Below, one piece after another: positions 6,001-6,678 of a stretch of 64,000 nucleotides of DNA (its first letter is position 1; every line of letters begins with the position of its first letter). A model generated the notes under the pieces. That model was not told where the DNA came from, did not search any database, and was given only the letters and a program-made list of their open reading frames with translations. The position numbers were made by a program, and so were the translations under genes. Origin of the DNA: Escherichia coli (lineage in GTDB: Bacteria; Pseudomonadota; Gammaproteobacteria; Enterobacterales; Enterobacteriaceae). Location of the stretch: assembly GCF_045037415.1 (NCBI RefSeq), contig NZ_CP173438.1; one strand, 5' to 3'.

Positions 6001-6678
6001 GGCATTATCACCCGTAATAACAAGCTCACCGTTATGATTATATTGCCACTTCGTTGCGCCATCTGCGCTCACCCCGTCAAGGGCAACCGTGTTATTCGCT
6101 TCATCAATTTGCCAAATATTAATAGTTGCCTTACGGCCATTGCTATCTTGTAGAGAAATAGTCCCGTCAGCATTCTCGGTATAAGTAAAAACTGAATCGC
6201 GAATAGTTAACGTTTTTGCTGTTTTATCGAGGATAACGTCATTATTAAACGAAATTGGTTTGGGAGGCGTCGGGGTATCATCCGAACCGTCGTCTGGTAT
6301 TATCTCATCTCCGCCAGGAGTTGGGGGAACTGGAGTGTCGTCTGAATTATCATCAGGTGGAGTTGGTGGAAGTGGAGAATTATTGCGATGATGATGATCA
6401 TCATCGTCGTTTAGTTCCACTATGGCTAAGGCTGTGATTAACGCAGTAGCAGCACCTGTGGCAAGCCATGGCATCAGGTTCTGTTCGACTACAGGGGAGC
6501 ATTCAGAGGGTAAGCGTTTAAGCTCTTCTGGACTGAGTTTTCCAGGGTCTGCCGGACAAGTCACATTGGTATTTTTCTTTTCACCTGTGGTGGTTTCTAT
6601 CTCTGTGATATCTGCCGCCCAGCCCTGACCACTCAGAGCCAATGCAATACAGGCTGACAATAGAGTTTTCCTTTGCAT
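1..6678 (-). CDS. ydbA: Giant repetitive autotransporter-type outer membrane protein (YdbA homolog), partial: start codon at 6676-6678, reading frame still open at window position 1 (3' end and beta-barrel lie outside the window)
   Basis: Hand translation of the minus strand from ATG 6676-6678 gives MQRKTLLSACIALALSGQGWAADITE (signal peptide), a Pro/Asp-rich linker, then G/D/N/T-rich 98-aa repeats; frame checked open for 6678-5881 and 60-1. The ORF track lists no long minus ORF, which fits an ORF running off the window edge. Position next to paaY matches K-12 ydbA synteny. Confidence 0.8.
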   Translation of the reverse strand, partial: MQRKTLLSACIALALSGQGWAADITEIETTTGEKKNTNVTCPADPGKLSPEELKRLPSECSPVVEQNLMPWLATGAATALITALAIVELNDDDDHHHRNNSPLPPTPPDDNSDDTPVPPTPGGDEIIPDDGSDDTPTPPKPISFNNDVILDKTAKTLTIRDSVFTYTENADGTISLQDSNGRKATINIWQIDEANNTVALDGVSADGATKWQYNHNGELVITGDNATVNNNGKTIVDGKDSTGTEIAGNNGKVIQDGILDVSGGGHGIDITGDSATVDNKGGMTVTDPDSIGILIDGDKAIVNNDGDNAISNGGTGTQVNGDEATVNNNGNTTVDGQGSTGTEIAGNNAVVNQDGTLDVSGGGHGIDITGDSAKVDNKGGMTVTDPDSIGILIDGDKAIVNNDGDNAISNGGTGTQINGDEATVNNNGNTTVDGQGSTGTEIAGNNAVVNQDGTLDVSGGGHGIDITGDSATVDNKGGMTVTDPDSIGILIDGDKAIVNNDGDNAISNGGTGTQVNGDEATVNNNGNTTVDGQGSTGTEIAGNNAVVNQDGTLDVSGGGHGIDITGDSATVDNKGGMTVTDPDSIGILIDGDKAIVNNDGDNAISNGGTGTQINGDEATVNNNGNTTVDGQGSTGTEIAGNNAVVNQDGTLDVSGGGHGIDITGDSATVDNKGGMTVTDPDSIGILIDGDKAIVNNDGDNAISNGGTGTQINGDEATVNNNGNTTVDGQGSTGTEIAGNNVVVNQDGTLDVSGGGHGIDITGDSATVDNKGGMTVTDPDSIGILIDGDKAIVNNDGDNAISNGGTGTQVNGDEATVNNNGNTTVDGQGSTGTEIAGNNAVVNQDGTLDVSGGGHGIDITGDSATVDNKGGMTVTDPDSIGILIDGDKAIVNNDGDNAISNGGTGTQVNGDEATVNNNGKTTVDGQGSTGTEIAGNNAVVNQDGTLDVSGGGHGIDITGDSATVDNKGGMTVTDPDSIGILIDGDKAIVNNDGDNAISNGGTGTQINGDDATANNNGKTIVDGKDSTGTEIAGNNAVVNQDGTLDVSGGGHGIDITGDSATVDNAISNGGTGTQVNGDEATVNNNGKTTVDGQGSTGTEIAGNNAVVNQDGTLDVSGGGHGIDITGDSATVDNKGGMTVTDPDSIGILIDGDKAIVNNDGDNAISNGGTGTQINGDDATANNSGKTIVDGKDSTGTEIAGNNAVVNQDGTLDVSGGGHGIDITGDSAKVDNKGGMTVTDPDSIGIQIDGDKAIVNNDGDNAISNGGTGTQINGDEATVNNNGNTTVDGKDATGTEIAGNNAVVNQDGTLDVSGGAHGIDITGDGAIANTTGAITVADTDSVGIQVDGNAVTVSNDGDSTITNGGTGTQVNGNDAQVNNTGNTTVDGKNSTGTEITGNNGTVNLDGGLIVTGGAYGVEIAGDSAALNNEGDISVSDEGSIGVLINGEKATVSNTGDVNVSNNATGFDITTNEGNISLAGSMQVGDFSTGMDLNGNNNSVTLAAKDLNVTGQKATGVNVSGDANTINITGNVLVDKDQTADNAADYFYDPSVGINVNGSDNNVTLDGKLTVVADSELTTRGSAGAIIFDGSQENITGLSIAGDGNTFRLNGGIQLVGEANKLTDGSTIASERKGSGKVPLVSVDGKSSVHLNGDSTISGDVLLGNTQIIDLRNGAMLDVGADATINMQVDTYERYAMSADHLIDASSGSQLVNNGDINLRSIGFAAITGEDSFGSNTGNLTLSQYLDGLFANGGYGYLATKGASVVNTGTITTKVAEQESVINLGASLGFNDLVFYNAANSMTGLSAKTHGYVLNENGGKIEMFGRGNVGMLAIDESTAENAGQITLDALWVDVNDTTTLRDNIGNDARGYSVGMGVGTDAGSGPRKNATAVNQQSGVITVYNAGIGMAAYGAGNTVINQGTINLEKNGNYDSSLGVNSLIGMAAYNSGTAINDQTGVININADNGQAFYSTGNGVILNYGTICVNTNCLTGNDYNDTDSYTSILYTGGDVITAQSETQSLTKKATISDKKDGNVVNSGALSGADIAISSGKLVNTSTGTINNAIIINGGALSNEGSVAKVTQNAGTFNNTGSVNSRMTQTGGTFNNQQGGTVKNGSRLANSAIANNMGIWSLGDTSSGSNASMLEINNNAVFKNSGDFILDNSKNAVHLNQSGTFYNTGKMLLSNSSHSGVLNFWGGNGRFINGGIADVTAKSLAVSASDAGSSNAFF
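2489..5930. repeat. Tandem array of 294-bp (98-codon) coding repeats inside the autotransporter gene; about 11 near-identical copies plus one 207-bp in-frame truncated copy (3371-3577)
   Basis: Antisense-frame ORFs in the track recur every 294 bp (3917, 4211, 4505, 4799, 5093, 5387, 5681) with identical or near-identical 67-aa products; direct reading of the sequence confirms the period. Confidence 0.9.

What the first reader, a model, noticed from the sequence alone, without database searches (positions are those of the whole stretch)
6256..6414. Acidic Pro/Asp-rich linker with a DDDDHHH run between the signal peptide and the repeats
After the predicted signal peptide and a hydrophobic stretch, the protein has NDDDDHHHRNNSPLPPTPPDDNSDDTPVPPTPGGDEIIPDDGSDDTPTPPKP. 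This is a low-complexity Pro/Thr/Asp segment unlike the rest of the passenger domain. An Asp4-His3 run could bind metal; the Pro-rich part may act as a spacer or a processing site.
Basis: seen in the sequence. Interest (0 to 1): 0.3.

Follow-up and report, generated by a model that had tools for sequence, protein, structure and literature searches.

The report
Acidic proline-rich spacer in YdbA autotransporter
The segment is a real, disordered, acidic proline-rich spacer near the start of the giant E. coli surface protein YdbA; its counterpart in Salmonella BigA is the well-known variable repeat used for strain typing, so it is largely ordinary.

Summary
On the minus strand, window 6256-6414 encodes residues 89-141 (LNDDDDHHHRNNSPLPP...TPTPPKP) of ydbA. 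This is a BigA/YdbA-family type Va autotransporter that starts at 6678 and runs off the window start.

The segment holds 14 of the protein's 33 prolines and its only D4 and H3 runs. AlphaFold2 predicts it to be disordered. It is kept in frame in all E. coli alleles examined.

It is the short, non-expanded form of a family-wide low-complexity linker. In relatives the linker is a tandem array of 7-11-residue units built on a PDDGG core:
- E. albertii carries 3-16 copies, and nothing else in the protein changes length.
- In Salmonella BigA this array is the MLVA typing locus STTR3.

The best reading is an extended, polyanionic spacer. It joins the BigA_N beta-barrel to a conserved but uncharacterised N-terminal module. 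That module has four parts: a signal peptide, an exact 20-residue Cys-Cys loop, a marginally hydrophobic Gly/Ala-rich helix, and an Asn/Asp/His patch.

The DDDDHHH run is YdbA's version of that patch. His is about 14-fold enriched there across the family. Metal binding is plausible but untested, and I found no evidence for a processing site. The linker itself is of low interest; the N-terminal module is the only mildly novel element.

The parts
1..6678 (-). ydbA coding sequence, codons 1-2226 of 2867. It runs off the window start; the C-terminal BigA_beta domain and autotransporter barrel lie outside the window.
   Evidence: Open frame. 100% identical to the SK1144 CDS WP_099996233.1, 2867 aa. 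PF25784, PF25783 and PF03797 found.
6616..6678 (-). Sec-type signal peptide, aa 1-21 (MQRKTLLSACIALALSGQGWA | AD).
   Evidence: Read from the sequence: n-region, h-region and a small-x-Ala cleavage motif. The [aromatic]-A | [A/E/T/G] site is conserved across the family alignment. No SignalP run was available.
6499..6558 (-). Conserved 20-residue Cys-Cys loop, aa 41-60 (CPADPGKLSPEELKRLPSEC). Presumed to be disulfide-bonded.
   Evidence: C41, P42, L48, L56 and C60 are invariant in 18 sequences. The 18-residue spacing is fixed in 23 of 24 module sequences. The disulfide is inferred, not shown.
6415..6477 (-). Gly/Ala-rich, marginally hydrophobic helix 'H2', aa 68-88 (LMPWLATGAATALITALAIVE).
   Evidence: Highest Kyte-Doolittle 19-residue window, 1.70. 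Hessa sum +2.0 kcal/mol; family range +0.4 to +4.1. Hydrophobic moment 0.1. W71 conserved in 22/24 and G75 invariant.
6382..6414 (-). Asn/Asp/His patch, aa 89-99 (LNDDDDHHHRN). The DDDHHH part is encoded by (GAT)3(CAT)3 at 6388-6405.
   Evidence: Family patch: His 13.5% against 0.98% background, Lys/Arg 1.7% against 5.0%. E. coli alleles read DDDDHHH, DDDDHH or DDGNHHH.
6256..6381 (-). Pro/Asp/Thr linker, aa 100-141, with two degenerate units: PDDNSDDTPVPP (aa 108-119) and PDDGSDDTPTPP (aa 128-139).
   Evidence: AlphaFold2 pLDDT 45-64, no secondary structure. It aligns with the PDDGG-core tandem repeats of relatives.
6013..6255 (-). BigA_N beta-barrel domain, aa 142-222.
   Evidence: PF25784, E = 5.7e-32, full profile coverage 1-80/80. 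AlphaFold2 pLDDT 76-89.
2706..6012 (-). Passenger tandem repeats of 294 nt (98 aa), about 11 copies, including one shortened 207-nt unit.
   Evidence: Tandem Repeats Finder; translation.

Best explanation
Residues 100-141 form an intrinsically disordered, strongly acidic, proline-rich spacer, probably in an extended polyproline-II-like conformation of up to about 13-16 nm. The spacer sits at the distal N-terminal end of the YdbA autotransporter passenger.

It joins the folded BigA_N beta-barrel and beta-helical stalk to a small conserved N-terminal module. That module consists of a presumed disulfide-closed 20-residue loop followed by a marginally hydrophobic Gly/Ala-rich helix.

The spacer is the short, sequence-diverged, length-stable form of a family-wide tandem repeat of 7-11-residue units built on a PDDGG core. 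In other members this repeat expands and contracts by whole in-frame units; in Salmonella BigA it is the VNTR typing locus STTR3.

The DDDDHHH run (aa 91-97) is YdbA's version of a conserved Asn/Asp/Ser/Gly/His patch that follows the helix. My inference about that patch:
- The acidic, Lys/Arg-poor flanks let the hydrophobic helix pass through SecYEG instead of acting as an inner-membrane stop-transfer anchor. A stop-transfer would trap the passenger in the cytoplasm.
- The conserved His residues may give cation or pH-dependent interactions at whatever interface the helix occupies.

What is shown: sequence, composition, predicted disorder, conservation, and copy-number behaviour in relatives.

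What is inferred: the spacer role, the disulfide, translocation of the helix, and any metal binding.
For: - Gene identity and architecture.
- Composition statistics.
- Predicted disorder: pLDDT is 32-64 over aa 1-140, against 76-97 from aa 142 onward.
- Family-wide layout: the same order of elements is seen in the 26 family N-termini analysed, taken from the 60 clusters (50% identity) the search returned.
- The linker is a VNTR in relatives. Fourteen complete E. albertii proteins differ only in linker copy number, 3-16 units of 9 aa, with the rest constant at 1736 aa.
- Purifying selection in E. coli: 12 synonymous-only against 3 amino-acid-variable codons, and only one-codon in-frame indels.
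- The two YdbA units share 10 of 12 residues, yet every one of the 12 codons differs (DNA read). This indicates conservation at the protein level and explains the length stability.
- Proline is not essential. Some members use Asp/Gly/Asn repeats instead (P0047, P0058, P0065). The conserved property is therefore an acidic, flexible spacer.
- Helix flanks: Lys/Arg 1.7% against 5.0% background (p = 3.6e-4); His 13.5% against 0.98%.
- Helix hydrophobicity is marginal in every member: Hessa sum never below 0, median +2.0.
Against: - There is no experimental data on YdbA or enterobacterial BigA biogenesis or function in the searchable literature.
- AlphaFold2 disorder came from a shallow 18-sequence alignment.
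- The E. coli selection estimate rests on four alleles.
- His enrichment was counted over related sequences, so the p-value overstates independence.
- The DDDHHH part of the run is encoded by a slippage-prone (GAT)3(CAT)3 tract and is polymorphic (HH or HHH; DDGN). Its exact form is therefore not constrained.
- Four of 26 members have no His in the patch.
- By the Kyte-Doolittle and Eisenberg criteria the helix scores as transmembrane. Its passage through the Sec translocon is an inference from autotransporter topology, not a result.
Confidence: 0.6

Rival explanations
1. Metal-binding site. The Asp4-His3 run, and perhaps the whole polyanionic linker, binds divalent cations such as Zn2+, Ni2+, Cu2+, Ca2+ or Mg2+. 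Binding would stiffen the spacer, bridge it to LPS phosphates, or sense metal or pH.
For: Adjacent Asp and His side chains are classical metal ligands (established chemistry). His is about 14-fold enriched in the 16 residues after the helix across the family: 22 of 26 members have at least one His and 18 have at least two. The linker carries 14 acidic residues in 52.
Against: There is no fixed ligand geometry or motif. His number and position vary, and four members have none. No Pfam metal-binding family matched at E <= 0.1. The run is polymorphic within E. coli: HH or HHH, and DDGN. Nothing here measures binding.
Confidence: 0.2
2. Tether for a membrane anchor. The hydrophobic helix stays embedded in a membrane, either the outer membrane after secretion or the inner membrane transiently during secretion. 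It would be a protein equivalent of the N-terminal lipid anchor of NalP, SphB1, AlpA or CapA, or of the slow-release extended signal peptide. The Pro-rich linker would be the leash that sets how far the passenger tip can move from that anchor.
For: The helix has uniform hydrophobicity (hydrophobic moment 0.1, mean Eisenberg hydrophobicity 0.64-0.77), a conserved interfacial Trp in 22/24 members, an invariant Gly, and a small-residue stripe typical of packed membrane helices. N-terminal lipidation that keeps autotransporter passengers at the surface is documented for NalP, SphB1, AlpA and CapA (PMC9289746). The BigA barrel groups with NalP-type barrels (PMC3419190). Linker length is tuned by copy number in relatives.
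Against: After signal-peptide cleavage, a stable inner-membrane helix would be oriented N-out/C-in and would leave the 2700-residue passenger in the cytoplasm. The flanks lack the positive-inside signature, and the biological-scale insertion energy is unfavourable, median +2.0 kcal/mol. AlphaFold2 gives the helix pLDDT 32-36. The YdbA linker, at most about 16 nm, is far shorter than its roughly 2300-residue stalk, so the tip cannot reach back to the cell's own outer membrane.
Confidence: 0.2
3. Neutral low-complexity sequence. The segment is a by-product of replication slippage and repeat decay, tolerated because it lies between domains, and has no function beyond not disrupting the frame.
For: The D/H run is encoded by the trinucleotide tract (GAT)3(CAT)3. 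One-codon indels occur among E. coli alleles. Linker length varies from about 20 to 170 residues across the family, and some members nearly lack it (P0065, P0058).
Against: An acidic low-complexity linker is retained at this exact position in all 26 analysed N-termini. The two YdbA units keep 10 of 12 residues although all 12 codons differ. The E. coli alleles show a synonymous excess in the linker, 12 against 3, at least as strong as in the folded BigA_N domain, 15 against 10. Repeat units are always whole multiples of 3 nt and never cause frameshifts in intact genes.
Confidence: 0.15
4. Processing or antigenic-variation site. The Pro/Thr-rich stretch is cut by a protease to release the N-terminal module. 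Alternatively it is an exposed, immunodominant, length-variable epitope like the polymorphic Pro-rich regions of pertactin.
For: It is exposed, disordered and Pro-rich. Copy number is polymorphic within species in relatives (STTR3). From my own knowledge, not checked here: pertactin has polymorphic GGxxP and PQP repeat regions.
Against: No recognisable cleavage motif is present; for example there is no dibasic OmpT site, and the only basic residues are R98 and K140. The YdbA linker itself is length-stable in E. coli. STTR3 is reported as a relatively stable locus with one dominant allele. There are no proteomic data.
Confidence: 0.1

Closest known systems
STTR3 VNTR in Salmonella enterica BigA (the MLVA typing locus)
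   Same: It occupies the homologous position in a homologous protein: after the signal peptide, Cys loop, hydrophobic helix and His patch, and before BigA_N. It has the same PDDGG-core, Pro/Asp/Gly/Thr composition.
   Different: STTR3 is a true tandem array of 27- and 33-bp units with 10-12 copies and copy-number alleles. YdbA has only two units, 20 residues apart, whose DNA has diverged at every codon. It therefore varies in E. coli only by single-codon indels.
E. coli and E. albertii BigA-type paralogues (e.g. WP_250251242.1; E. albertii WP_137654256.1)
   Same: Same N-terminal module and linker position; 44-57% identity over the N-terminus.
   Different: Their linkers carry 3 to about 16 perfect 7- or 9-residue units. 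Their His patch reads NHDDGNHAH or NDDNNHNHD instead of NDDDDHHH.
N-terminally lipidated autotransporters (NalP, SphB1, AlpA, CapA)
   Same: They have a hydrophobic element at the extreme N-terminus of the mature passenger, thought to keep it associated with the cell surface (PMC9289746). From my own knowledge, not checked here: SphB1 also has Gly- and Pro-rich stretches after the anchor. The BigA barrel groups with the NalP type.
   Different: There is no conserved lipobox. Cys10 is replaced by Gly, Ser, Ala or Val in other members, and the preceding h-region is too short. The hydrophobic element here is a peptide helix, not an acyl chain, and the passenger is an adhesin-like beta-helix, not a protease.
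Extended signal peptide region (ESPR, PF13018) of large autotransporters and TPS proteins
   Same: Both are unusual N-terminal extensions with two hydrophobic stretches in very large type V proteins. ESPR is proposed to control the timing of inner-membrane release (my own knowledge, not checked here).
   Different: No Pfam ESPR match. Here the first hydrophobic stretch is a complete canonical signal peptide with a conserved cleavage site. The second lies 47 residues downstream, beyond a conserved Cys pair.
Polymorphic Pro-rich repeat regions of pertactin, and Pro-rich spacers such as TonB and the OmpA hinge
   Same: Pro-rich, extended, low-complexity segments in envelope proteins. Those of pertactin vary in copy number (my own knowledge, not checked here).
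   Different: There is no sequence relationship. The YdbA linker is strongly acidic, sits at the N-terminal tip of the passenger, and is attached to a hydrophobic helix.

Membership tests
BigA/YdbA-family type Va autotransporter | BigA_N beta-barrel domain (PF25784) | tested here: met
   E = 5.7e-32, 110 bits against a 24.5-bit cut-off, aa 142-222, full profile coverage.
BigA/YdbA-family type Va autotransporter | C-terminal BigA_beta sandwich (PF25783) and 12-stranded autotransporter barrel (PF03797) | tested here: met
   Both lie outside the window. In the 100%-identical SK1144 gene, PF25783 is at aa 2436-2519 and PF03797 matches at E = 1.8e-19 when the last 417 aa are scanned alone.
BigA/YdbA-family type Va autotransporter | N-terminal Sec signal peptide | tested here: inconclusive
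   A canonical n/h/c layout and a conserved small-x-Ala cleavage site are seen by inspection and in the alignment. No signal-peptide predictor was available.
BigA proper (NCBIfam NF033178, auto_BigA) | Whole-protein score above the curated cut-off of 3400 bits | tested here: not met
   1663.7 bits for the full-length protein. YdbA is a paralogue, not BigA itself.
PDDGG-core VNTR linker (STTR3 type) | Head-to-tail tandem units with copy-number polymorphism within a species | tested here: not met
   Met in relatives: E. albertii 3-16 copies and Salmonella STTR3. In YdbA there are two diverged units separated by 8 residues. Tandem Repeats Finder reports nothing at 6256-6414, and E. coli alleles differ only by one-codon indels. 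It is homologous in position and composition but is not itself a VNTR.
ESPR extended signal peptide | PF13018 motif preceding the signal peptide | tested here: not met
   No Pfam match other than BigA_N in aa 1-200 at E <= 0.1.
Lipoprotein autotransporters (NalP/SphB1 type) | Lipobox with an invariant Cys at +1 of the mature protein | tested here: not met
   The LSAC at aa 7-10 follows only a 5-residue h-region. The Cys is Gly, Ser, Ala or Val in many family members.
Inner-membrane stop-transfer / transmembrane anchor | Favourable insertion energy and positively charged cytoplasmic flank | tested here: not met
   Hessa sums +0.4 to +4.1 kcal/mol (simple sum, without position weighting). C-flank Lys/Arg 1.7% and Asp/Glu 21%. 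Kyte-Doolittle 1.70 and the Eisenberg values do reach transmembrane range, so the result leans against this but is not decisive.
His-rich metal-binding segment | Measured metal binding or a defined ligand motif | not testable with these tools
   Only composition is available: His enrichment.

The most novel reading that the evidence does not exclude
The linker is the leash of a previously undescribed N-terminal sorting or anchoring module that is specific to giant BigA/YdbA autotransporters of Enterobacterales. The module would be a disulfide-closed 20-residue loop, then a Trp-capped, Gly/Ala-striped helix tuned to be just too weakly hydrophobic to stop Sec translocation, then an Asp/His cation-binding collar.

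The helix would act as one of three things:
- a peptide counterpart of the lipid anchor of NalP/SphB1;
- a self-associating or membrane-inserting tip;
- a transient tether that keeps the first-exported end of a 2000-2900-residue passenger under control until the C-terminal barrel arrives.

Linker copy number would then set the reach of this module.
Probability: 0.2. Interest if true: 0.55.

Novelty: new member of a known kind. Interest (0 to 1): 0.22.

Why it matters
For the linker itself, little is at stake. It explains a conspicuous low-complexity patch in a common but uncharacterised E. coli surface protein. It also ties that patch to the Salmonella STTR3 typing repeat, whose protein-level role has never been examined.

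Two practical points follow:
- These repeats break short-read assemblies. The N-terminal fragments left at contig ends are then mis-named 'EntS/YbdA MFS transporter' or 'porin'.
- The conserved Cys-loop, helix and His-patch module upstream of the linker is not covered by Pfam or by any solved structure. It is a cheap experimental target for anyone studying how very large autotransporters are kept secretion-competent or retained at the surface.

Tried and rejected
- Fold search: Foldseek of the AlphaFold2 model against the PDB gave no match at E <= 0.001.
- Sequence search of solved structures: a profile of the N-terminal module against PDB sequences gave only chance hits, E >= 0.35.
- Domain scans: Pfam and NCBIfam scans of aa 1-200 found nothing upstream of BigA_N.
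- Search for the module in other protein architectures: the profile search returned only Enterobacterales BigA/YdbA N-termini.
- Search for a conserved partner gene: four loci have unrelated neighbours, so I rejected a dedicated partner.
- Lipobox and ESPR readings: rejected; see the membership tests.
- Stable inner-membrane anchoring of the helix: rejected on topology, flank charge and marginal hydrophobicity.
- Calcium-binding thrombospondin-type-3 or RTX-like motifs in the PDDGG units: considered, but the DxDxDG spacing is absent and Pfam gave no hit.
- IgA1-hinge-like protease target (TPPTP): considered, with no supporting evidence.
- Literature searches on YdbA and enterobacterial BigA found no functional study. 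Several papers cite the unrelated Brucella BigA by mistake.
- The plus-strand ORFs overlapping the segment are antisense artefacts.
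Full report
**1. What is at the coordinates**

The feature lies on the minus strand. An ATG at window 6678 opens a frame that stays open for 2226 codons to the start of the window. The plus-strand ORFs listed over the same bases are antisense artefacts.

The segment is strongly non-random:
- 14 of the protein's 33 prolines fall in these 53 residues (p = 1.8e-15).
- The only D4 and H3 runs of the protein are here.
- Over the 52 residues 90-141 the net charge is -12 and 27% is Pro.

**2. Which gene**

The 1-kb region around the start codon is 100% identical to many E. coli chromosomes and is found in 2411 of 5426 complete genomes. In strain SK1144 the gene is an intact 2867-aa CDS annotated 'BigA/YdbA N-terminal beta-barrel domain-containing protein'. 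It lies between remnants of paaY and feaR on one side and pdxI on the other. In K-12-like genomes the same gene is the IS2-interrupted pseudogene next to paaY, that is ydbA.

Domain content:
- Pfam finds BigA_N at aa 142-222 (E = 5.7e-32).
- In the full-length copy, BigA_beta is at aa 2436-2519.
- The full-length copy also has a C-terminal autotransporter barrel (PF03797, E = 1.8e-19).

So this is a bona fide type Va autotransporter. It is a paralogue of BigA: it scores 1664 bits against the 3400-bit cut-off of NF033178.

**3. Anatomy of the N-terminus**

| Residues | Element | Evidence |
|---|---|---|
| 1-21 | Canonical signal peptide (…GWA / AD) | |
| 22-40 | Acidic tail | |
| 41-60 | CPADPGKLSPEELKRLPSEC, Cys-Cys loop | |
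| 68-88 | Most hydrophobic stretch of the region (LMPWLATGAATALITALAIVE) | |
| 89-99 | LNDDDDHHHRN, Asn/Asp/His patch | |
| 100-141 | Pro/Asp/Thr linker | |
| 142-222 | BigA_N beta-barrel | |
| beyond 222 | About eleven 98-residue repeats | |

AlphaFold2, run on an 18-sequence family alignment, gives pLDDT 32-64 and almost no secondary structure for aa 1-140. From residue 142 onward it gives 76-97 with regular beta structure. The linker is therefore predicted to be disordered.

**4. The family view**

An exhaustive HMMER search of 1.8 billion cluster representatives found only 60 clusters. The named ones come from Escherichia, Enterobacter and Rahnella, and the later module search (section 8) added Salmonella and Citrobacter. 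All 26 usable N-termini show the same order of elements:

- **Signal peptide.**
- **An exact 20-residue loop**, CPx[ND][IL]xxL[ST]xE[EQ]xxKLPxxC. C41, P42 and C60 are invariant, and L48 and L56 nearly so.
- **An acidic stretch ending in W(G)W.**
- **A Gly/Ala-rich helix**, typically 17-22 residues, with an invariant Gly and a conserved Asn at its end.
- **A patch rich in Asn, Asp, Gly, Ser and His.**
- **A low-complexity acidic linker.**
- **BigA_N.** A few members go straight into passenger repeats instead.

In most members the linker is a perfect tandem array:
- PPDDGGNVT x 15 in the E. albertii representative.
- NTPDDGG x 15 in E. coli BigA.
- TPTPPDDGGD x 3-4, DPIPDPTP and others.
- A few members use Pro-free DNGG-type repeats.

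In E. albertii, 14 complete proteins of 1796-1913 aa differ only in copy number, 3-16 units. The remainder is exactly 1736 aa in each.

In S. Typhimurium this array is the MLVA typing locus STTR3. It has 27- and 33-bp units and 10-12 copies in reference strains, and is described as lying between the signal peptide and the polypeptide chain of BigA (PMC5183578 and PMC3391293). The published 27-bp unit translates to DGGNVTPPD.

**5. YdbA's own linker**

YdbA keeps two units: PDDNSDDTPVPP (aa 108-119) and PDDGSDDTPTPP (aa 128-139). They share 10 of 12 residues, yet every one of the 12 codons differs (DNA). The repeat is therefore old and conserved at the protein level. It is also no longer a substrate for slippage, and Tandem Repeats Finder reports nothing there.

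Four divergent E. coli alleles show 12 synonymous-only variable codons against 3 amino-acid-variable codons in aa 89-141, plus two one-codon indels (HHH or HH; GS or P). The folded BigA_N domain shows 15 against 10. More distant alleles read DDGNHHH.

**6. The D4H3 run**

At the DNA level the last three Asp codons and the three His codons form (GAT)3(CAT)3 at 6388-6405; the first Asp is GAC. This explains the HH/HHH polymorphism. It is nevertheless not a private accident.

In the 16 residues after the helix across 26 members:
- His is 13.5%, against 0.98% in the rest of the proteins.
- Asp + Glu is 21%.
- Lys + Arg is 1.7%, against 5.0%.

The sequences are related, so the p-values overstate independence. 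Four members have no His. Metal binding is chemically plausible but untested.

**7. How it most likely works**

Shown: the linker is disordered, polyanionic, conserved in composition, and free to vary in length among relatives while everything else is held constant. That is the behaviour of a spacer. At 0.31 nm per residue, aa 90-141 could extend to about 16 nm.

Inferred:
- The Cys pair with fixed spacing implies an oxidised, exported location, so the first signal peptide is the real one.
- The following helix must then cross SecYEG rather than stop transfer. Otherwise the passenger would stay cytoplasmic.
- This fits the helix's marginal biological-scale hydrophobicity in every member (simple Hessa sums +0.4 to +4.1, median +2.0 kcal/mol) and its acidic, Lys/Arg-depleted flanks.
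- By the Kyte-Doolittle and Eisenberg measures, however, it looks like a membrane helix. It also has a conserved interfacial Trp and a small-residue stripe.

What the helix does after export remains open. It could be a surface anchor analogous to the lipid of NalP or SphB1, a self-association or membrane-insertion tip, or a transient tether.

**8. Comparisons and negatives**

- There is no ESPR motif and no conserved lipobox.
- Nothing in the PDB is related by sequence or fold.
- No other protein architecture carries the module.
- No neighbouring gene is conserved across four loci.
- No functional literature exists on YdbA or enterobacterial BigA. Several papers conflate the latter with the unrelated Brucella BigA.

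**9. Verdict**

The spacer interpretation is supported. Metal binding is possible but untested, and there is no evidence for a processing site.

The segment is the non-expanded E. coli YdbA counterpart of a known VNTR linker, Salmonella STTR3. I therefore class it as a new member of a known kind, of low interest. The only element with some novelty is the conserved, unannotated Cys-loop, marginal-helix and His-patch module that the linker attaches to the passenger.

Noticed in passing
window 6415-6558 (minus strand, aa 41-88): A family-invariant 20-residue Cys-Cys loop (CPx..LSxE..KLPxxC) is followed by a Trp-capped Gly/Ala-rich helix with an invariant Gly. Neither is covered by Pfam, NCBIfam or any solved structure. 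Both are found only in Enterobacterales BigA/YdbA autotransporters.
   Followed up: partly
window 2734-6153 (plus strand): A 1139-codon open reading frame runs antisense to the ydbA repeats, together with a series of identical 67-codon ORFs every 294 nt. This is a by-product of the Gly/Asn/Asp/Thr-rich repeat codons, not a gene.
   Followed up: partly
window 7107-7584: Overlapping remnants of paaY (C-terminal part, minus strand) and feaR (C-terminal part, plus strand) are present. The whole feaB-tynA-paa cluster is deleted in this lineage. The deletion places ydbH-ynbE-ydbL (7756-10911) next to ydbA. The remnants are annotated as pseudogenes in SK1144.
   Followed up: partly
database records matching window 5900-6900: RefSeq/PGAP names many YdbA genes or N-terminal fragments 'EntS/YbdA MFS transporter', apparently a YdbA/YbdA name mix-up. 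Many Salmonella BigA N-terminal fragments are named 'porin'. Most of these fragments end at contig ends, which is consistent with short-read assemblies breaking in the linker repeats.
   Followed up: no
window 2706-6012: About eleven 294-nt (98-aa) tandem repeats at 86-92% identity make up the passenger. One unit is shortened to 207 nt, at 3283-3702. Total gene length differs widely between E. coli strains: CDS spans are 5022, 6063, 6699 and 8604 nt.
   Followed up: no
L007 (NZ_CP117053.1) and L002 (K-12-like): ydbA is a recurrent target of insertion sequences. An IS3 sits at about codon 50, leaving a 49-residue N-terminal ORF and an annotated restart at Met69. An IS2 truncates the K-12 gene.
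   Followed up: no
window 6388-6405: A (GAT)3(CAT)3 trinucleotide tract encodes DDDHHH. Allelic HH/HHH variation fits slippage.
   Followed up: partly
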